In this document: piece after piece, positions 129 to 14,617 of the stretch | How the letters are laid out: the number at the start of each line of letters is the position of its first letter | Numbering within the stretch: the stretch's first letter is position 1 | Assembly: GCA_048571215.1 (NCBI GenBank) | Contig: CP182352.1 | Span: forward strand, 192,001-256,000 | DNA: 64,000 nt | From: Halarcobacter sp. | GTDB lineage: Bacteria; Campylobacterota; Campylobacteria; Campylobacterales; Arcobacteraceae | Direction: 5' to 3' | Made by a program: the position numbers and the translations under genes | Notes under the pieces: generated by a model | What the model saw: the letters and a program-made list of their open reading frames with translations, nothing else | Told to the model about the DNA's origin: nothing | Database searches by the model: none

Positions 129-1634
129 TTATTTTATAAATAGCGATTGTATAGCTGTTTGTGTTAAGTCTATAAGTGTATCAATATTTAATACAGGTAT
201 AAAGAATACTATTGCACTACCAATACCTCCAACAACTGTAACTATTGCTAAAAATCCAATAGCATAAGTTGAGATTCTTTTATCATTAAAATCATTACTT
301 ACACACTCATCTTTTGTAGGATAAAAATACATCATTGCGATAAGTTTGAAGTAATAATATACAGATACAAAAGTTGCAATAATTGCTAATACTGCAAGTG
401 GTGCAAATCCAGCATTTATAGCTTCAGTAAATACATAAAATTTACCGATAAAACCAATAGTTGAAGGGATACCAGCTAGTGAAAATAAGAAAATAGTCAT
501 CATAGCAGCTAAAAATGGTCTCTCTTTTGCTAAACCTTTAAAGTCATCATATGTAACTCTAACTTTTGTCTCAGAGATAATATGTGAGATGATACCAAAT
601 GAACCAAGTGCAGATAATAAATATGCAATAAGATAAAATACAGTTGCATATGCTGCATCAATATTTTGACCAATGGCTATAAATGCTAATAGTAAATAAC
701 CTGTATGAACAATTGAAGATGCTGCTAACATTCTTTTTACAATTTTTTGTGTTATTGCTAACCAAGTACCAAATACTAATGTTAAGATAATGATTACATA
801 AATAATTGAATCCCAGAAATTTATCATAGAACCCATATCTTGTAAAATTGCTCTTAAGAAGAATGAAAAAATCGCAATTTTAAAAGTAGATGCCATATAT
901 GCAGTGATGATCATAGGAGCACCTCTATACACATCTAGAACCCAAGATTGGAATGGGAAGGCTGCAACTTTGAATAGGAACGTAAATAAAATAAGTGATA
1001 ATCCTATATATATAAGTGCTAAATCTCCATTATTATGAGTAGAAATAAAGTTTGCAATCTCTGTTAAATTAGTACTTTGTGCCGCTCCATAAACTAGTAC
1101 AACACCTAATAGATAAAAAGCACCAATAAATGAACCTAAAACTAAATATTTGAAAATAGCCTCAACCCTTTTTGAGTCATCAGTGTTGTACCCAACCATA
1201 ATATAAACTGAAAAAGATGCAATCTCTAAAGCAATATATGCAGTAACTAAATCGTTTGAGTTAGCTAATAACATCATCCCAAATAAAGCAAACAATAAAA
1301 TTGAGAAAAACTCACCTTTAAAGTATGATCTAGATTGAAAATAGTTTTCACCAATTAATAATGTAAGTAAAGTACCACCAATTAATAGTACATTGAAAAA
1401 GTTTGAAAAAGTATCAAATATCAAAACATTATTAAAAACTGAATTGTATGGTTTAACCGAATACAACTCACCAAATGGAATAAAAGTTAAGATAAGTGCT
1501 AATATTAAAACAACAGATGAAACTATAATGTATTGTTTAGTATTAAATTTATTTTCAAACATACTCATAAACATTAAAGCAACAGCCGCTATTAAAACTA
1601 TTGATACAGGTAATATATGTATTAAGTTACTCAT
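129..1634 (-). CDS. nuoN: NADH-quinone oxidoreductase subunit N
   Basis: 501-aa polytopic antiporter-like subunit, [11 protein letters not shown] motif, last gene of nuo operon. Confidence 0.95.
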
Positions 1635-3112
1635 TTTGTTGCTCCAATATGTAAAATGTCATTTAAGTAGTGTGTAACAGTTGGTTCAAATTTATCTATG
1701 AAGATATCTGGATAGATACCCATTAAAAATACTAAGAAAACCCATGGTGCTAAACCAATAATCTCTTTGATTTTTAAATCTCTAAATTTTAAATCTGAAC
1801 CCTCTCTATTTTGCAAAATTGCCCTTTGAAACATCCATAACATATATGAGGCACCAATTATTACAGTAAGAGCTGAGATATAACCTAAAGTGTGATTAAA
1901 CTCATAGATACCAAAGATAATTAGTAATTCTGAAACAAAACCATTTGTTCCAGGAAGTCCCACATTTGCAAATAACATAATTGCAAAAATTGTTGTAAAT
2001 ATTGGAGCTTGTTTTGCTAACCCACCTAAGTCTTTAATTGTTTTAAATCCAGTCTCTTCATGAATCAATCCAACAAGTAAGAATAATGCACCTGTTGCAA
2101 TTGCATGGGCAATGATTAAGTATAATGCCCCATTTACACCAAAAGCATTTAGTGAAAAAATACCAGCAGCAATAAAACTTAAGTGTGATGCTGAAGAGTA
2201 TGCAAACATTCTTTTAATATCATCTTGCATAAGTGCTGCAATACCAAAGTAAACAAGTCCAAATAAACCAATAAATACAAACCAGCTTGAGAATTCAACA
2301 TAAATCTCAGGGAAGATTGGAATTAAAAATCTTACAACTGCATAAACTCCAAGTTTTGCCATAATAGATGATAATAAAAATACTGCACCAGTAGGAGCAT
2401 TTTTATATGTTTCCATAATCCAAGTGTGTAATGGGAACATTGGAATCTTAATAGCAAATGCAGAAAGAAAAGCTAAAAATAACCAAATTTGTTCAGTATA
2501 GCTTAGTGTTGTGATTTGTGTAAGTTTATCGTATTGGAATGCCCATTGACCAAACTCATTATGATAAGCAACACCTAAATAGATAATTGCTACAAACATA
2601 AGTAAAGAACCAAGCATAGTATAAACAGTAACTTTAATAGTTGTAAATACCTTGTCTCCAAATCCATAAATACCTATCATTAAGAAAACAGGTAAAAGCA
2701 TAACTTCCCAGAAAAAGTAAAAAAGAACAACATCAAGAGCTAAAAGTGAACCAGTAACACCAGTTTGAACTAATAGCATGTTTATCCAATATCCTTTTGT
2801 TCTACCTTCCCAAAGTAGAAGATATGCTGTTGGAATTAAAATAGCAATCATCATTAGAATTGTTAATGAGAAACCATCAACACCAATATAGTAATTAATA
2901 CCATAAGACTCAATCCAAGGAACATTAGTAACAAACTGCATTCCGGCACTTGGCTCAAAATCGATGTAGATTTTAAGAACAAGTGCTAATATTACAGTAG
3001 TAGTTAGAAATGCTATATTTCTAACTGTTTCTATATGTTTTGTAGTTATCATTAAACCAAAGGCAACAACCGCTGGTAAAAAGATAATAAATGATAAAAT
3101 ATCTGCACTCAT
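1631..3112 (-). CDS. nuoM: NADH-quinone oxidoreductase subunit M
   Basis: [18 protein letters not shown] and [11 protein letters not shown] motifs. Confidence 0.95.
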
Positions 3113-3113
3113 C

Positions 3114-5003
3114 TTATAATCCTAAAGAAATATATAAATATATAAAAACACAACTCATACCAATAAGCATAAAGGCCGCGTAAAATCTTACATTTGCATT
3201 TTGTATCATTGCAACTTTTTTACCAAAAGAAACAAACTCATTACAAACACCCATTATAAATCCATCAATAATCTTAGTATCAACTACTTTGTCAATAAAA
3301 GTAGAGATTTTTTTAGAAAATTGAACAAAAATTATGTCATAGAACTCATCAACATAGAATTTATTAGCAATAATCCCTTTTTCATCTTCAGGTTTATAAA
3401 CATCAAAGTTGGCATATTTTTTATAAGCTACAACAATTCCTGCAACTGCTACAACAATAGATAATATCATCAGAATATATTCTGTTGCATGTGACATATG
3501 AATATGTGTAGAGTTAGTTTGTGCTAACCATGTATCAACTAAATGTTCACCTCCAAATATTGCTGGTAAGTTAAGAAAACCTGCTCCAACTGCTCCAACT
3601 GCTAATATAACAAGTGGGAAAGTGATAGTTTTTGATGTATAAACATATTGTTTTGTATGTTTATTTGGCGCTACAAATAAAATAAAATACATTCTAAACA
3701 TATAAAATGCTGTTAAAAATGCTGTAAACATTCCAATTGCCCAGATTAGGTATTGACCCTCTTGGAAAGCTGCTGCTAAAATAGCATCTTTTGAAAAGAA
3801 TCCAGAAAATGGAGGGATACCAGAAATTGCAATAACACCAATTAAGAATGTAATTCCAATAATTGGAAGTTGCACTCTATGTTGTGCCATTTTAAAAATA
3901 TTTTGTTCATGGTGTAAAGCTATAATCATACCACCAGCACCCATGAATAACATCGCTTTAAAAAATGCGTGAGTAAATACATGAAATAGTCCTGAACTAT
4001 AAAAACCTAAACCAACACCTATAAACATATATCCAAGTTGTGACATAGTTGAGTATGCAAGAATTTTTTTAATATCTTGTTGTCTTGTTGCAATTATTGC
4101 TGCAAATAGTGCTGAAAATGCACCAATATAAGCTATAAATGTACCAATCTCTTCAATTCCACTATATAAGAAGTGAAATCTTGCAACCATATAAACCCCA
4201 GCTGTTACCATTGTAGCTGCGTGGATAAGTGCTGAAATTGGAGTTGGTCCTGCCATTGCATCAGGAAGCCACACATATAATGGAATCTGTGCTGATTTAC
4301 CCATAGCTCCAACAAATAGTAGGAAACCTGATAATACTAATAATCCAGTTGGTGCATTATTTATATTTGCTTCAAGGGAAGTAAAGCTTAAGTCAACTTC
4401 TCCTAAAGCAAAGAATAGGGTGATAAGACCTAAAAGAAAACCAAAATCTCCAACTCTATTTGCAATAAAAGCTTTGTTACCAGCTATAACATTATCTTTA
4501 TCAGTATAATAAAAGGCAATTAGTAGGTATGAACAAACACCAACACCTTCCCAACCAATGAAAAGAATAATTGGATTATCTGCTAATACTAGGATTAACA
4601 TTGAAGCTAAGAATAGGTTAAAGTATGCAAAAAATTTACCAAACCCTTTATCTCCTGTCATATAACCAATAGCATAAATATGAATTAACCAACCAACAAA
4701 AGTTACAAACATTGACATGAAAATAGCTAGGTTATCACCTAAAAAGCCCATATTTACATTTAGTGTTCCAATATTTAGCCAAGTAAATAGTGTTTGTTTA
4801 TATGTAATACCACCATCAACCATGCCTAAAAAGATATTTAAAGTTATTAAAAAAGCTATTAAGGGTGTACCTGTACCAATTATAGAGAAAACCAATTCTG
4901 AAACAGGCTTTTTCTTAATGTGATAGAAGTAGATACCACCATTTAATATTGCACCAAGCAGTGGTGCTAATATTATCCAAACAAGAAGCGAAGTATCCAT
5001 CAT
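3114..5003 (-). CDS. nuoL: NADH-quinone oxidoreductase subunit L
   Basis: GKSAQIPLYVWLPDAMAGPTPISALIHAATMV motif. Confidence 0.97.
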   Translation of the reverse strand: MMDTSLLVWIILAPLLGAILNGGIYFYHIKKKPVSELVFSIIGTGTPLIAFLITLNIFLGMVDGGITYKQTLFTWLNIGTLNVNMGFLGDNLAIFMSMFVTFVGWLIHIYAIGYMTGDKGFGKFFAYFNLFLASMLILVLADNPIILFIGWEGVGVCSYLLIAFYYTDKDNVIAGNKAFIANRVGDFGFLLGLITLFFALGEVDLSFTSLEANINNAPTGLLVLSGFLLFVGAMGKSAQIPLYVWLPDAMAGPTPISALIHAATMVTAGVYMVARFHFLYSGIEEIGTFIAYIGAFSALFAAIIATRQQDIKKILAYSTMSQLGYMFIGVGLGFYSSGLFHVFTHAFFKAMLFMGAGGMIIALHHEQNIFKMAQHRVQLPIIGITFLIGVIAISGIPPFSGFFSKDAILAAAFQEGQYLIWAIGMFTAFLTAFYMFRMYFILFVAPNKHTKQYVYTSKTITFPLVILAVGAVGAGFLNLPAIFGGEHLVDTWLAQTNSTHIHMSHATEYILMILSIVVAVAGIVVAYKKYANFDVYKPEDEKGIIANKFYVDEFYDIIFVQFSKKISTFIDKVVDTKIIDGFIMGVCNEFVSFGKKVAMIQNANVRFYAAFMLIGMSCVFIYLYISLGL

Positions 5004-5314
5004 GATTTCTCTCCTTGAGTTAATGTAGTAAAGATATCTGTATCAAGTGATCTTTTTGATCTAAATAATAATATGATTACTGATAAAAATATTGCAGCTT
5101 CAGCAGCAGCAATTGAAATTACCATAATAGTGATAATTTGAGGATCCATATTGAAGTGATATCTTGCAAATGTTATTAGAAATAGATTTACTCCATTTAA
5201 CATAAGTTCGATTGACATATAGATTACAAAGATATTTCTTCTTGCAATTACACCTATAACTCCGATTGAAAAAAGAATCATAGAAACAAAAGCATATGAT
5301 GTTAAACTAATCAT
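5000..5314 (-). CDS. nuoK: NADH-quinone oxidoreductase subunit K
   Basis: SIELMLN and AAAEAA motifs, 104 aa. Confidence 0.95.
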   Translation of the reverse strand: MISLTSYAFVSMILFSIGVIGVIARRNIFVIYMSIELMLNGVNLFLITFARYHFNMDPQIITIMVISIAAAEAAIFLSVIILLFRSKRSLDTDIFTTLTQGEKS

Positions 5315-5826
5315 GCGTCTTCCTTATTCATTTTTTTTCTTCTTGCTAATACAATTGAACCTACAAGTGCAATTAGTAGTAAAATTGAGATTAACTCAAA
5401 TGATATAATCCAATCGTTGTATAATAATTTACCGATAGGTTTAATATCTCCAAAAGAACTCTCTACAAGTTTCATATCTGCATCAGGTAGATTTGAAATA
5501 GCTTTTAAAATTACAATATTAAAAGGGATCATAACTACTACACCTAAAGCAATAAGTGAGAATTTTTTAGGCTCTTTTGGTAAATGTTCATCTTTAATAT
5601 TTAAGAACATTAGTAAAAATAGAATAAGTGTCATAATAGCACCTGCATATACTATTATTTGAACCATAAATAAAAATGTTGCATTAAGTAGTGCAAAAAG
5701 TCCTGCAACTGACATAATAGAAATCAACAAGCCAAGAGCAGAGTACATTGGACTTCTATAAACTAACATTGCTACACCACCAGCAATTGCAAAAAAACTA
5801 AGTGCTAGAAAAATTAAATTACTCAT
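5311..5826 (-). CDS. nuoJ: NADH-quinone oxidoreductase subunit J
   Basis: QIIVYAGAI and FELISILLL motifs; start moved to the ATG of MSNLIF. Confidence 0.92.
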   Translation of the reverse strand: MSNLIFLALSFFAIAGGVAMLVYRSPMYSALGLLISIMSVAGLFALLNATFLFMVQIIVYAGAIMTLILFLLMFLNIKDEHLPKEPKKFSLIALGVVVMIPFNIVILKAISNLPDADMKLVESSFGDIKPIGKLLYNDWIISFELISILLLIALVGSIVLARRKKMNKEDA

Positions 5827-6325
5827 TATCAAAATCCTTTGAACGCTCATAAGACATAAGTTGTTTTTTATCTACTACGAAATCTTCTCTTTTACTAGCA
5901 GTGAAACTAAAAATTCCTGTATCCATTCTAATAGCATCACATGGACAAGCTTCAACACAATATCCACAAAATACACACTCTAATAAATCGATTTTAAACT
6001 CTTTAGGTCTTTTTTCTGCTACTCCATCGAATCTCTCTTGGGCATCAATAAAGATACATTGAGCTGGACATGCAGTTGCACACATATAACATGCCACACA
6101 TTTTTCACTACCATCATCCCATTTTGTTAACCTATGTACACCTCTATATCTATCTGTGATATCTGTTGGTTGAACCTCAGGATATTGTTGCGTTTTTAAC
6201 TTCGATACATCACCTAAATTTTCTTTAAAGTGTGTAAACGTAGTTTTCATTCCCCCTATAATTGCTGGAATGTATAATCTATCTTTTAATGACTTTCCAT
6301 GTCTTGGTACAATTTTAATTCCCAT
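5819..6325 (-). CDS. nuoI: NADH-quinone oxidoreductase subunit I
   Basis: Two CxxCxxCxxxCP [4Fe-4S] motifs; YRGVHRL. Confidence 0.95.
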   Translation of the reverse strand: MGIKIVPRHGKSLKDRLYIPAIIGGMKTTFTHFKENLGDVSKLKTQQYPEVQPTDITDRYRGVHRLTKWDDGSEKCVACYMCATACPAQCIFIDAQERFDGVAEKRPKEFKIDLLECVFCGYCVEACPCDAIRMDTGIFSFTASKREDFVVDKKQLMSYERSKDFDNE

Positions 6326-6326
6326 A

Positions 6327-7610
6327 TTAACTTCCTGACACTACTACAAAAATAGCAGTTATTACAATATTTAGTATTGATAAAGGTATTAATACTTTCC
6401 AACCTAACATTTGAAGTTGGTCATATCTAAATCTTAATAGTGTCCATCTAATCCAAATGAATACAAAATTCATAAAGAAGAATTTAGCGATGAATGTTCC
6501 TATTTGGATTACAGCAGTTGCAATATTTACACCATTTGAACCAAGTCCTGTTATTAAGAACAAGATTAAAATAGCCATTACTACAGCAGTAATTCCCCAG
6601 AAAGCTTTTATTAAGATATTTTTTTCTCTATCTCTTTTGTCGTTAGCATCTAGCCAGTTATAGTTTTTGTTCATCCATTTATTTAAAAAGAATGCCTTGA
6701 TTGGTAAGATAATTATAATTGCTAGAATAACATAGTTGATATTACTTTGAATTGTTTGTGTATCCAACCAAGGGATTTGATAACCACCTAAAAATAGTGT
6801 AACTATAATAGCTGACGAAGCACTCATTGCCGCATATTCACCAACTTGGAAAAGACCAAATCTCATAGCTGAATACTCTGTATGATACCCAGCAACAATC
6901 TCTGATTCACCCTCTGCTATATCAAATGGTGTTCTATTTGTTTCAGCAAAAGCAGTAACTACAAAAATTAATGCTGCAAGTGGTTGCATAAAAATACCCC
7001 AAGCTGGAATAAATCCAAAAAATACTCCACTTTGGGCTTGAACCATTTCACTAAGATTAATTGTCCCATATGTTAATAAAACAGAGATAACAGATAATGA
7101 CATAGCTGCTTCATAAGAGATAACTTGTGCTGATGCTCTAATCCCACCTAAAAGTCCATATTTGTTTTCAGATGAATAACCACCTAAAATAATACCAAAT
7201 ACAGACAAACCTGCAAATGCTAAAAACCACATAATTCCAAGGGTTGTTGGAATTGCTTGCATCATAAAACTTTCCCCATCTATTACCAATGTATCAGAAA
7301 AAGGAATAACTGCCATTGTCATAAATGAACAGAAAAAAACTATTGCAGGAGCAATTGTATATAGAAACTTTTCTTTAATATGTGCTGGAGTAAAATCCTC
7401 TTTAAACACAAGTTTTAACATATCTGCGATTGCTTGAATTAGACCACCTAATCTAATCCCAGCAATATCTGCTCTGTTAGGACCAGTTCTATCTTGCATA
7501 AGACCTGCAACCCTTCTTTCCCACCAAACCATAATTGGAGTTGTTCCAACCGATAAGATTTTAGCAAGAAGAATATTTACAATAATTACTACTATTGAAA
7601 CCGTACTCAT
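6327..7610 (-). CDS. nuoH: NADH-quinone oxidoreductase subunit H
   Basis: ERRV..QDRTGPN and AETNRTPFD..EGESEIVAGYHTEYS motifs. Confidence 0.95.
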   Translation of the reverse strand: MSTVSIVVIIVNILLAKILSVGTTPIMVWWERRVAGLMQDRTGPNRADIAGIRLGGLIQAIADMLKLVFKEDFTPAHIKEKFLYTIAPAIVFFCSFMTMAVIPFSDTLVIDGESFMMQAIPTTLGIMWFLAFAGLSVFGIILGGYSSENKYGLLGGIRASAQVISYEAAMSLSVISVLLTYGTINLSEMVQAQSGVFFGFIPAWGIFMQPLAALIFVVTAFAETNRTPFDIAEGESEIVAGYHTEYSAMRFGLFQVGEYAAMSASSAIIVTLFLGGYQIPWLDTQTIQSNINYVILAIIIILPIKAFFLNKWMNKNYNWLDANDKRDREKNILIKAFWGITAVVMAILILFLITGLGSNGVNIATAVIQIGTFIAKFFFMNFVFIWIRWTLLRFRYDQLQMLGWKVLIPLSILNIVITAIFVVVSGS

Positions 7611-9043
7611 AGACTACCTTTTTCTATCATAGATTTGATATACTCAATTATTGAAGTGATTGACTCCATTGGTTTATCTTTTCTAATTTTTGAAATAACT
7701 TTTTGTTTAATACCTTCAAAGTTGATATATGTTCCACTTTTTTCATAAAATGAAGCAGTTGGAATTACAATATCAGACTTAGTAAGTGTTTCACAATTGT
7801 GAGAGAAACAACTTACAACTTTTTTACCATCTAAAAGTTTTAGATTGTTATCAAAATAGTTGTTACCTAAAATAACAACTGCAGATGCAGCTTTTAATGA
7901 TGAATTAAAATGCTCTTCATCTTCACTAATCTCTAACTCTTTAAATGCAGCTCTATTAGCTGATTTGTCAGATTTTCTTAAATAATCATCTCCAAAACTT
8001 TCATCAAATGAATGTGGAGCATATCCTGTTATATCTGCTTTAATTATTGATGCTAAATTTTTAACATTTTGCATCTCTTCAAGTGAAAGACTCGGGTCTA
8101 ATACAAATAAAATTTTACTTTCAGTTGTTAAAATTTTAAAAGTGTTAGTAATAGCATTATCGAAGTTACTTTCTTCATTTCCAATTTTCGCTTCTAAAAC
8201 TCTATTTTCAGCTTCATTCTTATAAGATAATCTTCCCTCATCACATATAAACCAACCATTAACCGCTTTGTTAACTCTTGGTCTAAATCTAAAGATTTGA
8301 TCATCTTTGTATTTTTCTTTTCTATGGTCCACTTTGATATTACATCCTCTTGCACAACCACTACAGATTGCATCAAAAGATTCCATAAACCAAACTCTTT
8401 GTTTAAATCTAAAATCTTGTGAGGTTAAAGCTCCAACAGGACATAGATCAACAACATTCATAGCATATGGATTATCTAAAGGACGTCCAGGAAAAGTTCC
8501 AATTACAGAATGGTCTGCTCTATTAATAACACCTAACTCATTTGTTTTGGTTATATCAGAACAGAATCTTACACATCTTATACAAAGAACACATCTTTCT
8601 TGGTCAAGCATAACATTGCTTCCAAGTTCAATTCTTTTTCTAGCTGTAACCTTATTGTCTACTTGTACTCTAGAATCATAAAATCCTGATTCCATATAGT
8701 AGTCTTGAAGTTTACATTCTCCAGCTTGATCACATGTAGGGCAGTCAATTGGGTGATTGATTAGTTCTAATTCAAGAATATCTCGTCTAACTTTTTCAAT
8801 ATTCTCACCCTTTGTTCTTACAATCATACCCTCTTTAATAGGAGTATCACACGCAATTTGTGGTCTTTTTTGTCCTTCGATTTCAACCATACACATTCTG
8901 CAGTTACCATCTTTACCTAAGGCTTGGTGATAGCAAAAATGGGGAATATGAATATCTCTGTCTATTAGGGCGTCTATTAAAAGACTCCCTTTCTCTGCAT
9001 CTATTTCTTCCCCATTAACTGATAGTTTAACAAGTTCACTCAT
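7607..9043 (-). CDS. nuoG: NADH-quinone oxidoreductase subunit G, short form
   Basis: PHFCYH..GNCRMC, NHPIDCPTCDQAGEC, CVLCIRCVRFC and CSGCARGC Fe-S motifs. Confidence 0.92.
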   Translation of the reverse strand: MSELVKLSVNGEEIDAEKGSLLIDALIDRDIHIPHFCYHQALGKDGNCRMCMVEIEGQKRPQIACDTPIKEGMIVRTKGENIEKVRRDILELELINHPIDCPTCDQAGECKLQDYYMESGFYDSRVQVDNKVTARKRIELGSNVMLDQERCVLCIRCVRFCSDITKTNELGVINRADHSVIGTFPGRPLDNPYAMNVVDLCPVGALTSQDFRFKQRVWFMESFDAICSGCARGCNIKVDHRKEKYKDDQIFRFRPRVNKAVNGWFICDEGRLSYKNEAENRVLEAKIGNEESNFDNAITNTFKILTTESKILFVLDPSLSLEEMQNVKNLASIIKADITGYAPHSFDESFGDDYLRKSDKSANRAAFKELEISEDEEHFNSSLKAASAVVILGNNYFDNNLKLLDGKKVVSCFSHNCETLTKSDIVIPTASFYEKSGTYINFEGIKQKVISKIRKDKPMESITSIIEYIKSMIEKGSL

Positions 9044-9078
9044 GTTGTGTCATCTCCTTTTTTGACCGCTTAATTTTT

Positions 9079-10365
9079 TTATTTACCTGTGTATAATTGT
9101 CTTGGTCTAGCAATTCTAGCTGTTGAGTCTTGTTTTAATTCTGACCACTGTGTGATCCATCCAACAGTTCTACCAATAACAAAAACTGGTGTAAACATCT
9201 CTACAGGAATTTTAAGAGCTGTTAAAATAACACCTGAATAGAAGTCAATATTTGGATATAAACCTCTTTGTTTGAAATAATCATCTTTTAATGCTGCTTC
9301 TTCTACAGCTGCAGCAACATCTAATAATCTAGAGTCAAGATTTAACTCTTCTCTTAATTTATCTTGTAAACCTTTTAGCGTTTCAGCTCTTGGGTCTCTG
9401 TTTTTATAAACTCTGTGACCAAATCCCATTAATCTAAATGGATCATTTTTATCTTTTGCTTTTGCAATATAAGTTGGTACATTTTTAACATCACCAATTA
9501 ATTTTAATTGATCCATAACTTTTTCATTTGCACCACCGTGAGCTGATCCCCATAATGCAGCAATACCAGAAGCAATTGCAACATAAGGGTGTGCTTCTGT
9601 TGAACCTACATTTCTAACAGTTGTTGTAGAAGCATTTTGTTCATGATCTGCATGAAGAGTAAAAATCGCATCTAAAGCATCAACTTCAACTTGTCTAATA
9701 TCATCATTATGACCATTACCTAGGTATTTCATTTTTCCACCTGGATATGCTCTTAACATATATAAGAAGTTTTCAGTAAAGTATCTATTTACATCTGGAT
9801 AGATTTGTGGAACGCCAATTGAATTTCTATAAGCCATTGCAGCAATAGTTGGTATTTTTGCAACTATTCTTCTTCTCATTTCTTTAAATTGATCTTCATC
9901 TTCTAAATGTAAGTGATCCTTATAAAAAGTTGATAAAGCCATAGTAGCTGCACCAAGTGTTGCCATTGGGTGAGCATGATCTGGAAATGCATCAAAGATT
10001 CTTGTTAAACCCTCATGTACAAAAGATCTATGTCTAATTTCTAAATCAAAACCTCTTGATTCTTCAGGACTAGGAAGTCTACCTCTCATTAATAAATAAC
10101 ATACATCTAGATAAGATTTTTTACCCGCAAGTTCTTGTATTGGGTATCCTCTATATCTTAATTCCGAATTTTCTCCATCAATAAATGTGATTTTTGAATC
10201 ACAAGCTGCAGTTGATGTATAACCTGGGTCATATGTAAACATACCAGAATCTTTATAGAAACTTCTAATATCTACTACATCTGGTCCTCTTGTACCACTT
10301 ATGATATTATACTCATATGCTTTGCCATCTCTGTTATCCGTTAATGTAAATGTATTCTTTCCCAT
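9079..10365 (-). CDS. gltA: Citrate synthase
   Basis: HADHEQNAST, AHGGANE, MGFGHRVYK and NIDFYSG catalytic motifs intact. Confidence 0.96.
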   Translation of the reverse strand: MGKNTFTLTDNRDGKAYEYNIISGTRGPDVVDIRSFYKDSGMFTYDPGYTSTAACDSKITFIDGENSELRYRGYPIQELAGKKSYLDVCYLLMRGRLPSPEESRGFDLEIRHRSFVHEGLTRIFDAFPDHAHPMATLGAATMALSTFYKDHLHLEDEDQFKEMRRRIVAKIPTIAAMAYRNSIGVPQIYPDVNRYFTENFLYMLRAYPGGKMKYLGNGHNDDIRQVEVDALDAIFTLHADHEQNASTTTVRNVGSTEAHPYVAIASGIAALWGSAHGGANEKVMDQLKLIGDVKNVPTYIAKAKDKNDPFRLMGFGHRVYKNRDPRAETLKGLQDKLREELNLDSRLLDVAAAVEEAALKDDYFKQRGLYPNIDFYSGVILTALKIPVEMFTPVFVIGRTVGWITQWSELKQDSTARIARPRQLYTGK

Positions 10366-10386
10366 CTGTTGTTCTCCTTATTTAAA

Positions 10387-11646
10387 TTATTTACTAAAAT
10401 GCGTTTCAAATTCATGTCTATATTTTTGCACGATACTTTTTATAATATCTTTTACAGCAGGTGCAAATACACAAACAGTTTTACCATTCATTGTTTCACA
10501 AACATCTAATATAGTTTGGATATCATCACTTGAACCTTCACCGTCTAGAATCTTCTTGATGATTTTATCAATCCATCCAGTTCCCTCTCTACACGGTGTA
10601 CACTGCCCACAAGATTCATGGTGATAAAACTCTATTAGGTTTTTTGCTACATCAACCATTGATACGCCTTCAGGGATAATCATCATCCCACCAGTACCTA
10701 AAGTAGAACCTATATCCCACATAGATTCATAATCTAGATATGCCTTTTCAACTTCTTCCGCAGTTAAAATAGGACACGAAGCCCCACCTGGAATAACAGC
10801 TTTAAGTTTTAAGCCCTCTTTCATCCCACCACCAATATCGTTGATAACATCAGTCATCTTTTCACCATATTGTAACTCATAAACTCCAGGATTTTTAACT
10901 GGTCCACTCATCGCAAATAGCATAGTTCCAGGAGCCTTTTCTGTACCATATTTAGTATATGATTCATATCCATTTAATACAATATTTGGAACAGATGAAA
11001 TAGTTTCAACATTATTAACTGTTGCTGGTTGGTCATAAAACCACTCACACTCTTTTCCATGTGGTTTTAATCTTGGGTGTCCACGTTTACCTTCAATAGA
11101 TTCAATAAGAGCAGATTTTTCTCCACAAATATAAGCTCCTCCTCCTCTATGTACTGTGATATCCATTCTAAAGTCATATTTATTCATAACTTTTGGACCA
11201 ATTATTCCAGCTTCATATGCTTCTTCAATAGCCTCATTTAATCTATCGATGAACCATTTGTATTCACCTCTAATATAAATATATGCATCATGGGCACCAA
11301 TTGCATATGAAGAGCATATAATTCCTTCAATAAGGATATGTGGATCATATTGAAAAATTTGTCTATCTTTAAATGTTCCTGGTTCTGATTCATCCCCATT
11401 TACAATTAAGTATCTAGGTCTATCATCAACTGGAGGCATAAGTTTCCATTTAGGTCCACAGGCAGCTCCACCACCACCTTTTCCTCTAAGACCACTTTTA
11501 CAAACCTCTTCAGTTACCTCTTCAGGTTTCATTGTAAAAAGTTTATCTATTGATTCATATCTTCCATTTTTAAGAGCAACTTCAAGTTTATGTGAATCGG
11601 GAATGTCAAAGTTTTTACTTACAATTTTTATTGGTTGAACAGACAT
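10387..11646 (-). CDS. nuoF: NADH-quinone oxidoreductase subunit F (FMN subunit) with atypical nucleotide pocket
   Basis: NGDESEPGTFKDR, AYICGE, NNVET and ESCGQCTPCREG motifs. Confidence 0.93.
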   Translation of the reverse strand: MSVQPIKIVSKNFDIPDSHKLEVALKNGRYESIDKLFTMKPEEVTEEVCKSGLRGKGGGGAACGPKWKLMPPVDDRPRYLIVNGDESEPGTFKDRQIFQYDPHILIEGIICSSYAIGAHDAYIYIRGEYKWFIDRLNEAIEEAYEAGIIGPKVMNKYDFRMDITVHRGGGAYICGEKSALIESIEGKRGHPRLKPHGKECEWFYDQPATVNNVETISSVPNIVLNGYESYTKYGTEKAPGTMLFAMSGPVKNPGVYELQYGEKMTDVINDIGGGMKEGLKLKAVIPGGASCPILTAEEVEKAYLDYESMWDIGSTLGTGGMMIIPEGVSMVDVAKNLIEFYHHESCGQCTPCREGTGWIDKIIKKILDGEGSSDDIQTILDVCETMNGKTVCVFAPAVKDIIKSIVQKYRHEFETHFSK

Positions 11647-12122
11647 TACTTACACTCCTCAATGATTTTTTTTAACTTATCTACAGTTAAATTTTCATGA
11701 TATTTGTGGTTTAATGCAATCATTGGAGCGCCACCACAAGCACCTTGACACTCAACTTCACTTAGATGAAATTTACCATCTTCACTAGTTTCACCTGGGT
11801 TAATTCCTAAAGTATCTTTAATGAATTTTTTAAGTTCTGGTGCGCCCATTATCATACAAGATAGGGTTTTACATAACTCAATATGATATGTACCAATTGG
11901 TTTTAAGTTAAACATTGTATAAAATGTTGCAAACTCATAAACCTCAATTGGAGTTTTGTTAAGTCTATCTGCCACATAAATCATAGCATCTGGACTAACC
12001 CATCCCTCTTGCTCTTGAACTAGCCATAAAGCAGGAAGCATCATTGCATCAATTTTTGGATACTTTTTCGCTGTTTTTTGGAATTTTTCTTCGTTTTCTT
12101 TGGTATATTCAAATTTTGCCAT
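11646..12122 (-). CDS. nuoE: NADH-quinone oxidoreductase subunit E
   Basis: ATFYTMF and CKTLSC...CQGAC [2Fe-2S] ligands. Confidence 0.93.
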   Translation of the reverse strand: MAKFEYTKENEEKFQKTAKKYPKIDAMMLPALWLVQEQEGWVSPDAMIYVADRLNKTPIEVYEFATFYTMFNLKPIGTYHIELCKTLSCMIMGAPELKKFIKDTLGINPGETSEDGKFHLSEVECQGACGGAPMIALNHKYHENLTVDKLKKIIEECK

Positions 12123-13756
12123 TATCTATCAAACTCCCCTGCAATAAAGTTCATACTTGCCATTGTAACAACAGCATCTGCTAACATAATACCCTCTACA
12201 ATTTTTGCATAAGCACCTAAAGAGTAGAAACAAGGTGGTCTACATTTAACTTTGTATGGTGTACCACTTCCATCACTAACTGTATAAAAACCTAATTCCC
12301 CATTTCCACCTTCAGTTGCAGAATAAAATTCACCTTTTGGAACTTTAATACCTTCAAAAGTTAGTTTAAATTGGTTCATTAAACCTTCAATATTTCCATA
12401 TACATCTTTTTTATTTGGTAGTACAATTGCTGGATGGTCAACATTAATAGGACCATCTGGAAGCTCTTTCATTGCTTGTCTAATGATTTTCATAGATTGT
12501 CTCATCTCTTCAAATCTACACATTATTCTGTCATAAACATCACCATGTGAACCTACTACAATATCAAAATCAAAGTTTTCATAACCATAATATGGAGTAT
12601 CTTTTCTTAAATCAAAAGGAACACCTGCAGCTCTTAAGTTAGGACCTGTAATACCTGCATCTAAAGCAAATTGTGAATCAATAACACCCACATCTTGAGT
12701 TCTATCGTGGAAAATTCTATTATGCTCAACAAGTGACAATGAGTCTTCAATAGCTTTTTCAACATCTTTTAACACATCTTCTAAATCTTCAGCAAAGCCA
12801 TCATAAAGATCAAACTCTAAACCACCAATTCTTGTATAAGAGTTTGTAAGTCTAGCTCCTGTTAGTTTTGAAAATAAATCGTAAGCCTTATCTCTTGGTG
12901 CAAAGATGTACCAGAAGTTAGTTAAACCACCAAGGTCAACCATGTTTGCTGCATTACAAACAATATGGTCAGTGATTCTACTTAACTCTCCAATGATTAT
13001 TCTAATCATTTTTGCTCTAGGTGTAATATCAATCTCTAACATATCTTCAATAGCTTTTGCATAACCAATATTATTTAATATAGCTGAACAATAATTTAAT
13101 CTATCTGTATATGGAATGATTTGTGAGTAGGTATGGTTTTCACAAGATTTTTCAAAACCTCTGTGTAGGTATCCAATCTCTGTTACACATGCAGTGATAG
13201 TTTCACCTTCCATTGCAACAAAGTTTCTAATAGTACCATGTGAAGCTGGGTGAGAAGGACCAACATTAAGCATCATTAAATCTTCTAAATCACTTTCTTT
13301 GTAACCTTTAGATTTAAGTAATGGAATCATCTCATCCATTAAATCTTCAGTTTCTGTACATCTTTGACCTTTTGTTATCTCATAATCTTTTCTTAATGGA
13401 TGTCCTACAAATTGGTGATGATTTAAAACTCTTTTTAGATTTTTATGCCCTTTAAATCTAATACCGTACTGGTCAAATACTTCTCTTTCTCCCCAATCTG
13501 CTGCATGGTATAAATCAGAGATTGTATCAACTTCTAAAGTATTGTCATCAACATAAGCTTTAACCGTAGTATGCTTTTTGAAGTTACTAGTTCTTAAGAT
13601 ATAAATAACTGCAAATCTAGATGGAGTAACATCTGGAAATGTTGAATAATCAACAGCAGTTACATCTAATAAAATTGTGAAATCTTCATCATTTTTAAGT
13701 CGAGTAATTGTTGATTTAATATCTTTTGCATCAATTAACATATCTGGTTTAAGCAT
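12122..13756 (-). CDS. nuoCD: Fused NADH-quinone oxidoreductase subunit C/D
   Basis: ERE..D.YGI.F.GH and GHPLRKDY (C domain) followed by [20 protein letters not shown] and C-terminal GEFDR (D domain). Confidence 0.94.
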
Positions 13757-14264
13757 CTAAAAATCCTTTGAACTTTCTTTCTCTTTCTTTTATGATTGAT
13801 TCATCATAAGATTTTTCTTGGATTCTCATAATTGCATCTAGTACTGCTTCAGGTCTTGGGGGACAACCTGCAACATACTCGTCTACTGGGATGATTTCGT
13901 CAATCCCTTGTAAAGTTGTGTAGTTATCATAAAAACCACCAGAACATGCACATGCTCCCATAGAGATGACCCATTTAGGTTCACACATTTGATCCCAAAT
14001 TTTCTTTAATACAGGAGCTTGTTTATATGAAATAGTTCCTGCAACAATTAGTAAGTCCGCTTGTCTTGGGGAAAATCTTACTACCTCTGCTCCAAATCTT
14101 GATATATCATAACGAGCTGCTGCAACTGACATAAACTCAATACCACAACATGCAGTACCAAATGCCATTGGCCACATTGAGTATGATCTAGCCCAGTTAA
14201 TAGCTGTATCAAGTTTTGTTGTAACTATAGAGTCACCTAGGTTTGACTCTGCTCCTAATCCCAT
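13749..14264 (-). CDS. nuoB: NADH-quinone oxidoreductase subunit B
   Basis: TACCGIE, SPRQAD and GCPPRPE motifs. Confidence 0.96.
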
Positions 14265-14617
14265 GATAACGCCTTTTTCTTATACATATATATTAAGCCT
14301 GAAAAAAGAAGACCTATAAAGATAAACATCTTTATTAGACCTGCGAAGCCAAGTTCTGTAATATTGATTGCCCAAGGAAACATAAAAATGATTTCTACAT
14401 CAAATAGTAAGAAACCTATAGCTACTAAATAAAATTTTACAGAGAATCTGATGTTTGTATTTCCAATTGGATTTGATACACCACTCTCATAAACTGTGTT
14501 TTTTAACTTGTCTTCAGTATTATTTGGTCCAAGATACTTTGTTAATAAGAATACTCCTATTAACACAAAAGCAATTGCGACAAATATTACTGACGAAAGA
14601 ATTAGATGTGTTGACAT
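14255..14617 (-). CDS. nuoA: NADH-quinone oxidoreductase subunit A
   Basis: YESG and [14 protein letters not shown] motifs. Confidence 0.95.

What the first reader, a model, noticed from the sequence alone, without database searches (positions are those of the whole stretch)
11041..11490. NuoF with a remodelled nucleotide pocket: possible NADPH-driven or non-NADH complex I
Seen: three canonical NuoF motifs are changed. GRGGAGFPTGxKWSF reads GKGGGGAACGPKWKL; YICGEETAL reads YICGEKSAL (Lys codon at 11116-11118); RLKPPFP reads RLKPHGK. FMN-contacting motifs (NGDESEP, GE, NN) and the N3 cluster ligands are intact. Established: in Thermus thermophilus Nqo1, F70, F78 and F205 stack the NADH adenine and E185 binds the ribose; mutating the equivalent E. 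coli NuoF E183 permits NADPH oxidation. My alignment from memory gives F70->A, F78->L, F205->G and E185->K, so all four are replaced. Inference: concerted change confined to the substrate pocket suggests a different electron donor, either NADPH (Lys could bind the 2'-phosphate) or another carrier.
Basis: partly seen in the sequence, partly recalled or inferred. Interest (0 to 1): 0.82.

Follow-up and report, generated by a model that had tools for sequence, protein, structure and literature searches.

The report
Complex I that probably oxidises NADPH
The respiratory complex I of this Arcobacter-family bacterium, always annotated as an NADH oxidiser, has a rebuilt cofactor pocket shared across a branch of Campylobacterota, and that pocket and the enzymes that feed it point to NADPH as the fuel; this has not been measured.

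Summary
NuoF (10387-11646, minus strand) lies in a complete nuo operon. The residues that hold the adenosine end of NADH are replaced (Thermus F70>A, E185>K, F205>G, P204>H, P206>K, G210>W), while flavin, nicotinamide-side and N3 residues are kept. It is not decay: K177 is fixed in 120/120, 64/64 and 120/120 clade members, absent from 150 outside representatives, and dN/dS is 0.06. The clade spans Arcobacteraceae, Sulfurospirillum, Sulfurimonas/Sulfurovum and the Campylobacter fetus group. Indirect support for NADPH: the NADP-using HydB of T. kivui also loses this Glu; the genome's pyruvate-dehydrogenase E3, NDH-2-like protein, HoxF and IDH carry NADP-type fingerprints; and in 121 family genomes this NuoF and a GltD-like, putatively NADPH-binding complex I subunit are nearly mutually exclusive (79/37/3/2). 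Against: 15 of 55 E3s read are NAD-type, MDH keeps its Asp, a new aromatic may restore adenine stacking, and nothing is measured. Verdict: new variant of complex I; NADPH a physiological donor about 0.7. The scan noted this pocket before on other DNA (e1-7771595).

The parts
10387..11646 (-). nuoF, 419 aa flavin subunit of complex I with rebuilt adenosine subsite
   Evidence: ORF; NF010120 436 bits over cut-off 389, TIGR01959 503 under 558.65; model pLDDT 96.4, TM 0.95 to 3i9v_1
11440..11481 (-). Gly-rich loop K56-L69 (R65>K, A68>G, F70>A, F78>L; K75 kept as K66)
   Evidence: K56 and G59 64 of 64, A/G61 64 of 64 in the clade
11365..11400 (-). NGDESEPGTFKD: FMN and nicotinamide-side residues (E86, E88, D94 = Aquifex E95, E97, D103), unchanged
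   Evidence: 120 of 120; roles from PMC6560083 and PMC9299107
11113..11121 (-). E176-K177-S178; K177 replaces the Glu that binds the adenosine ribose 2' and 3' hydroxyls
   Evidence: role of E185 from PMC6560083 supplement
11038..11067 (-). K194-F203 loop KPHGKECEWF replacing KPPFPAxxGL: loses P204/F205/P206, gains basic residues at 196/198, acid at 201, aromatic at 202
11011..11016 (-). N211-N212 FMN phosphate motif, unchanged
   Evidence: 120 of 120; role recalled
10462..10611 (-). N3 cluster ligands C346, C349, C352, C392 intact; clade-fixed F394-A395 in place of the usual L-G
11646..12122 (-). nuoE, 158 aa, four N1a cysteines (84, 89, 125, 129)
   Evidence: TIGR01958 over cut-off
12122..14617 (-). 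nuoA, nuoB and fused nuoCD
9079..10365 (-). gltA, citrate synthase inserted between nuoF and nuoG
   Evidence: TIGR01798 and NF004126 over cut-off
7607..9043 (-). short nuoG (478 aa) with cysteines for four Fe-S clusters
129..7610 (-). nuoH, I, J, K, L, M, N (membrane arm and NuoI); all frames open
   Evidence: each matches the genome's second nuo operon or the orthologous loci

Best explanation
This is an intact, proton-pumping complex I whose NuoF takes NADPH as a physiological donor (strong preference about 0.5, real dual use about 0.2). Shown: the nicotinamide, pyrophosphate, FMN and N3 residues are kept, so hydride transfer to FMN and the Fe-S wire look possible; the Glu that binds the adenosine 2'-OH is a fixed Lys and the adjoining loop gains basic residues. 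Inferred: K177 with K/H196, K198 or K56 binds the 2'-phosphate; the new aromatic at 202 replaces F70/F205 as the adenine platform; NADPH from NADP-type isocitrate dehydrogenase, NADP-type pyruvate dehydrogenase (most Arcobacteraceae) or a flavodoxin:NADP reductase is oxidised to reduce menaquinone. The genome's second, epsilon-type complex I would handle flavodoxin/ferredoxin. In chemolithotrophic carriers the same enzyme could run backwards to make NADPH.
For: (1) Fixed and selected: K177 in 120/120 close homologs, 64/64 orthologs at 53-93% identity, 120/120 homologs of a distant member; 0/150 outside; dN/dS 0.063 gene, 0.038 pocket, 29 pairs. (2) Of 74 positions conserved in at least 85% of representatives, 63 are kept and 8 of the 11 others are in the adenosine segments. 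(3) E185 binds AO2'/AO3' (PMC6560083 supplement). The NADP-using T. kivui HydB has Ser there and Arg340 at the F205 position, NAD-using A. woodii HydB has Glu and Phe (PMC10021017). (4) Own E3 has I322-R323 at E. coli E205-M206; E205G/A gives NADP activity (PMC8406311); 40 of 55 family E3s read have this pattern. (5) NDH-2-like protein has Ser at C. thermarum E198 (PMC5220320), 17/17 orthologs. HoxF has Ala for the Glu in 20/20. IDH has the NADP His/Arg pair (PMC4360740). (6) PntB not found in the own genome and in 1 of 121; NqrF 0 of 121. (7) This NuoF and the GltD/NfnB-like subunit of the other complex I type (bioRxiv 10.1101/717884; YRR motif and nuo context) are complementary: 79 NuoF only, 37 GltD-type only, 3 both, 2 neither.
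Against: No activity data. 15 of 55 E3s are canonical NAD-type (VVEM); all 15 genomes carry this NuoF (K177 read directly in 7), and in 10 of the 15 no acidic-type NDH-2 was found, so their NADH needs a sink, which this enzyme could be. All 65 aceE-positive genomes lie among the 82 carriers, which also fits NADH. Both own MDHs keep the NAD-type Asp. In the C. fetus group, where it is the only complex I found (3 of 3), IDH has Ile for His589 (8 of 8) and MDH is NAD-type. T. kivui HydB keeps the F70 equivalent; this clade loses it, so the match is partial. Segment 199-205 is acidic (mean -2.3 against -0.1), offsetting the basic gain (+2.2 against -0.8). Outside Arcobacteraceae 3 of 21 carriers also have the GltD-type subunit. 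Kin are not independent, and fingerprints are predictions.
Confidence: 0.7

Rival explanations
1. The enzyme takes a donor that is not a pyridine dinucleotide, such as flavodoxin, ferredoxin or a small reduced flavin; the adenosine pocket was rebuilt as a docking surface and FMN stays as the entry point.
For: Both main adenine-stacking aromatics are lost, more than in the NADP-using HydB. Campylobacterota use flavodoxin/ferredoxin as carriers (PMC6682613). In three C. fetus-group genomes it is the only complex I found and no PDH-type E3 was found, so it may have taken over the flavodoxin role.
Against: Residues that position nicotinamide and pyrophosphate (E86, E88, D94, Y172, K66, K194) are kept in 120/120. 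The own genome and both Sulfurospirillum-group genomes checked also hold an epsilon-type complex I. The distribution complements the GltD-type module, not the flavodoxin-type one.
Confidence: 0.14
2. It is still an NADH-only enzyme with a rearranged adenine site: W/F/Y202 replaces F70/F205 and E199/E201 or the Lys amine replace E185.
For: A new aromatic at 202 (64/64 W, F or Y) and an acid at 201 (120/120) are fixed. PDH occurs only in carriers (65 of 65) and 15 of 55 E3s are NAD-type. The papers seen assume NADH (PMC5630845, PMC4585668, PMC6682613).
Against: A Lys at the 2'-OH position removes the known discriminator. In the own genome E3, NDH-2-like protein, HoxF and IDH all look NADP-type, so an NADH-only complex I would have little substrate. 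The papers rest on annotation, not assay.
Confidence: 0.14
3. The pocket is decaying or dead, and NuoF is kept only as a structural subunit.
For: The 'standard' complex I was barely detected in S. multivorans proteomes under the anaerobic conditions tested (PMC4585668).
Against: The replacing residues are themselves fixed across several families; pocket dN/dS 0.038; whole operon intact; sole complex I in 3 of 3 C. fetus-group genomes.
Confidence: 0.02

Closest known systems
Canonical NADH-specific complex I NuoF/Nqo1 (T. thermophilus 3I9V/2FUG, A. aeolicus 6HLA, E. coli, Paracoccus 8QBY)
   Same: Fold (TM 0.91-0.96), 41-44% identity, FMN, nicotinamide-side and N3 residues, full nuoA-N context.
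   Different: E185, F70, F/Y205, P204, P206 and G210 replaced by K, A/G, a variable mostly non-aromatic residue, H/K/Q, K/P and W/F/Y.
T. kivui HydB (PDB 8A6T/8BEW), NADP-using NuoF-fold subunit of a bifurcating hydrogenase
   Same: Loss of the ribose-binding Glu and a basic residue in the 204-206 loop (PMC10021017).
   Different: Ser not Lys; Arg at the F205 position itself; keeps F70; 630 aa with extra Fe-S domains; soluble hydrogenase, not complex I.
Engineered or evolved E. coli NuoF E183 variants (Morina 2011; Auriol 2011)
   Same: Same position changed (E183 = K177).
   Different: Single laboratory mutations on an intact pocket. Recalled only: the papers were not held; only Morina's title was seen in a reference list.
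Epsilon-type complex I of Campylobacterota: flavodoxin type (NuoX/NuoY, C. jejuni) and Sulfurimonas type with a GltD/NfnB-like subunit
   Same: Same phylum, complex I not fed by NADH; the Sulfurimonas type is proposed to bind NADP(H) (bioRxiv 10.1101/717884).
   Different: Those replace NuoEF with other proteins; this one keeps true NuoE and NuoF. The own genome encodes the NuoX/Y type separately (C1:3439512-3453535).

Membership tests
Complex I NuoF (structural family) | Curated family score | tested here: inconclusive
   NF010120 436 over 389; TIGR01959 502.8 under 558.65
Complex I NuoF (structural family) | NuoF fold with FMN, SLBB and N3 domains and four N3 cysteines | tested here: met
   Pfam PF01512, PF10531, PF10589; TM 0.95 to 3i9v_1
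Complex I NuoF (structural family) | Encoded with all other core subunits | tested here: met
   nuoA, B, CD, E, F, G, H-N at 129-14617
NADH-specific NuoF | Glu binding adenosine ribose (E185) and adenine-stacking F70 and F/Y205 | tested here: not met
   K177, A61, G197; roles
NADH-specific NuoF | NADH oxidised far better than NADPH | not testable with these tools
   needs an assay
Epsilon-type flavodoxin complex I | NuoX/NuoY in place of NuoE/NuoF | tested here: not met
   true NuoE and NuoF present; definition from PMC6682613
Sulfurimonas-type complex I | GltD/NfnB-like subunit and two NuoG copies | tested here: not met
   no match in G000 at E<=1e-120; one nuoG in this operon
NADP-using HydB-type subunit | Ribose Glu lost and basic residue in the 204-206 loop | tested here: met
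   K177, H196/K198 against S320, R340
NADP-using HydB-type subunit | Extra Fe-S domains, hydrogenase partners, F70 equivalent kept | tested here: not met
   419 aa, three-domain Pfam pattern; A61; nuo context
NADP-using HydB-type subunit | 2'-phosphate contacted by the basic residues in three dimensions | not testable with these tools

The most novel reading that the evidence does not exclude
Much of Arcobacteraceae respires on NADPH: a horizontally acquired, E. coli-like pyruvate dehydrogenase was naturally switched to NADP, and with NADP-IDH it feeds a natural NADPH:menaquinone proton-pumping complex I that displaced the older GltD-type NADPH module, leaving a chain with no dedicated NADH entry point.
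Probability: 0.4. Interest if true: 0.86.

Novelty: new variant of a known kind. Interest (0 to 1): 0.72.

Why it matters
Complex I is the standard example of an NADH-specific enzyme, and the NADH/NADPH split between catabolism and biosynthesis is taken as general. A natural NuoF-type NADPH:quinone oxidoreductase in several Campylobacterota families would change the metabolic models of these organisms, which treat it as 'standard' or 'canonical' in the papers seen. It would show a solution to 2'-phosphate binding different from single-residue mutants, and offer ready parts (an NADPH-oxidising pump, an NADP-type PDH E3) for redox engineering. It also makes an old question, how Campylobacterota link their NADP pool to respiration, testable with one cuvette assay.

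Tried and rejected
Structure: folding without an alignment failed (pLDDT 35); the alignment model was good but no coordinates were returned, so whether W202 faces the adenine site stays open. No complex prediction was run: ligands cannot be scored and no binding claim is made. Expression: contigs of one RNA-library run lie on nuoF, the gltA-nuoF junction and nuoE-nuoCD with few differences, but DNA carry-over was not controlled, so this is not counted. Atlas search gave only the NuoF family. Donor lineage: the clade is one branch (18 of 58 rows, SH-like 1.0, FastTree) among Glu-type NuoF, but its sister group is unresolved and no clade test was run. Strict co-variation of K177 with NADP-type E3 was rejected (15 of 55 exceptions). 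An acidic NDH-2 as the NADH sink of NAD-E3 genomes holds in only 5 of 15 (2 of 29 loci not read by the pattern). A physical GltA-NuoF link was not pursued: gltA is missing from the operon outside core Arcobacteraceae. Two FqrB-like genes in the own genome were recognised from recall only; NCBIfam did not name them. One of 120 GTDB pattern hits (L166, Eubacteriales) is a chance match, not a NuoF. Literature: searches showed no paper on this pocket or on NADPH use by this complex; the library lacks most subscription papers, and Berrisford 2009, Morina 2011, Auriol 2011, Weerakoon 2008 and St Maurice 2007 were not held. Supplements were searched for PMC6560083 only; those of the genome and proteome papers were not seen and could bear on expression.

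Full report
Observation. The finding lies in a 419-aa ORF at 10387-11646 on the minus strand. It is nuoF of an operon nuoA-B-CD-E-F-gltA-G-H-I-J-K-L-M-N (129-14617), all frames open, with G+C like the genome's. The closest named proteins are Halarcobacter and Arcobacter NuoF. Counting on the phmmer alignments to T. thermophilus Nqo1 and E. coli NuoF gives R65>K56, A68>G59, F70>A61, F78>L69, E185 (E. coli E183)>K177, P204>H196, F205>G197, P206>K198 and G210>W202. K75, E95, E97, D103, Y180, E184, K202, N219/N220 and the four N3 cysteines are kept. The Lys codon is AAA at 11116-11118.

What these residues do. In A. aeolicus NuoEF, E185 makes two hydrogen bonds to the adenosine 2' and 3' hydroxyls; F71 and Y205 stack the adenine; F79 does not; E97 and Y180 place the nicotinamide (PMC6560083, parts 1-2 of 6 and supplement passages). 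PMC9299107 (parts 1-2 of 3) lists F71, F79, Y205, P206 and V207 as adenine contacts, and K76, K202, E95 and D103 elsewhere. So the changes fall on the adenosine end and spare the hydride-transfer end. A model from a 135-sequence alignment has pLDDT 96.4 and matches complex I NuoF at TM 0.91-0.96; it gave no coordinates to inspect.

Conservation. K56, G59, A61, L69, K177, H196, K198 and W202 are fixed in 120 of 120 best homologs. Orthologs occur in 82 of 121 Arcobacteraceae genomes; I read 50 of the 82, all K177. Among 301 class-level genomes, 21 carriers lie outside the family; I read 15, all K177. [quoted passage not shown] A GTDB scan for the motif stopped at 120 hits: 116 are titled as Campylobacterota, 3 are unclassified and 1 is a chance match. 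120 homologs of a distant member all have K56, K177, E201 and F394-A395; position 202 is F, W or Y in 115 and position 198 is mostly Pro. Against this, 0 of 150 representatives of other 50%-identity clusters have Lys177. Of 74 positions conserved in at least 85% of them, 63 are kept in the clade; 8 of the other 11 lie in the two adenosine segments, 1 is a gap artefact and 2 lie elsewhere. dN/dS against 29 orthologs is 0.063 for the gene and 0.038 for the pocket segments. The 18 clade rows form one branch among Glu-type NuoF. This is one old, selected rebuild, not decay.

Which donor? First, a natural precedent: T. kivui HydABC works on NADP+, with the nucleotide held by Phe205 and Arg340 (PMC10021017 passages). 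Its HydB reads GESTAL...RPPRT where NAD-using homologs read GEETAL...RPPFP: the same Glu is lost and the same loop gains a basic residue, though the F70 equivalent stays.

Second, the enzymes that make and use the cofactor in this genome. The E3 beside aceEF has Ile-Arg at E. coli E205-M206; E205G or E205A alone gives NADP+ activity, and an engineered E205V variant with four more changes prefers NADP+ 100-fold (PMC8406311 passages). Of 55 family E3s read (54 of the 62 hits, plus one partial gene), 40 have this pattern and 15 the canonical Glu-Met; in a tree of 47 rows the two types separate with full support, midpoint-rooted. The NDH-2-like protein has Ser at C. thermarum E198, the residue that excludes NADPH (PMC5220320 passages); 17 of 17 orthologs agree. 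The HoxF of the genome has Ala for the same Glu as NuoF, in 20 of 20 family copies, whereas Synechocystis Hox is NAD-only (bioRxiv 10.64898/2026.06.25.734504 passages; its sequence was not checked here). IDH has the NADP-defining His and Arg (PMC4360740 passages). PntB was not found in the genome and in only 1 of 121; NqrF in 0 of 121, with controls ringing.

Third, distribution. An earlier scan note (e1-4374105) pointed to a roughly 670-aa GltD-like subunit in the nuoF slot of the other complex I type, proposed to bind NADP(H) in Sulfurimonas (bioRxiv 10.1101/717884 passages). I confirmed its nuo context in four genomes. In the same 121 genomes, 79 have only the K177 NuoF, 37 only the GltD-type subunit, 3 both and 2 neither. 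Among 40 genomes picked from other families, 18 of 21 NuoF carriers lack it and 14 of 19 non-carriers have it. The pattern fits functional replacement, but it rests on few independent events.

Against. All 65 aceE-positive genomes are carriers, and the 15 with NAD-type E3 keep this NuoF; 10 of the 15 showed no acidic-type NDH-2. Their NADH may go through MDH plus malate:quinone oxidoreductase (inference, not tested) or through this enzyme, which argues for dual use. The genome's two MDHs keep the Asp. In the C. fetus group, where this is the only complex I found (3 of 3) and no PDH-type E3 was found, IDH has Ile for His (8 of 8) and MDH is NAD-type. The segment after the loop is acidic and brings a fixed aromatic, which could rebuild an NADH site. 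S. multivorans made little of this complex under the anaerobic conditions tested (PMC4585668 passages).

Known or new. The operon is known: A. butzleri (PMC2147049, PMC6682613), C. iguaniorum and the C. fetus clade (PMC5630845) and S. multivorans (PMC4585668) are described as having a canonical NADH complex I (passages). Two complex I surveys (PMC4453560, PMC4758237; passages) showed no mention of this pocket. Eight searches found no paper on it, within an open-access library.

Verdict. A structural member of the NuoF family that fails the NADH-specific test. New variant of complex I. NADPH as physiological donor 0.70, other carrier 0.14, NADH only 0.14, decay 0.02. Interest 0.72.

Noticed in passing
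G000:C1:1474284-1476062 (L186:2288-4063, minus strand): Pyruvate dehydrogenase E3 with Ile-Arg in place of E. coli E205-M206, an apparent natural switch to NADP; 40 of 55 family E3s read share it, 15 do not. Worth its own assay.
   Followed up: partly
window 9079-10365: Citrate synthase gltA sits between nuoF and nuoG in 45 of 46 core Arcobacteraceae loci read but not in the divergent members or other families, tying TCA entry to this complex I.
   Followed up: partly
G000:C1:2782520-2787310 (L187): HoxEFUYH hydrogenase whose HoxF has Ala for the ribose-binding Glu and His for F205 in 20 of 20 family copies: a candidate NADP-linked Hox.
   Followed up: partly
G000:C1:3429233-3430432 (L259): NDH-2-like flavoprotein with Ser at the NADH-selecting Glu, 17 of 17 orthologs.
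   Followed up: partly
L051, L052, L055, L056: In four Sulfurospirillum-group genomes the operon is split into convergent halves, nuoA-F facing nuoG-N.
   Followed up: no
L334, L338, L340: Malate dehydrogenases of three Arcobacteraceae without this NuoF have Arg-Ala or Arg-Ser where the NAD-type Asp usually stands, suggesting NADP-type MDH.
   Followed up: no
L327-L330, L332, L333, L335, L336: C. fetus-group monomeric IDH has Ile at His589 but keeps Arg600, intermediate between the described NADP and NAD types.
   Followed up: no
G000:C1:3439512-3453535: Second, epsilon-type complex I with two small genes (100 and 269 aa) in the nuoE/nuoF slots and an 834-aa NuoG.
   Followed up: partly
P0169, P0207, P0208, P0210, P0244, P0258: Other NuoF-fold representatives lose the same Glu (Ser or Ala) together with a changed PPFP loop: further candidate NADP-using lineages.
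   Followed up: no
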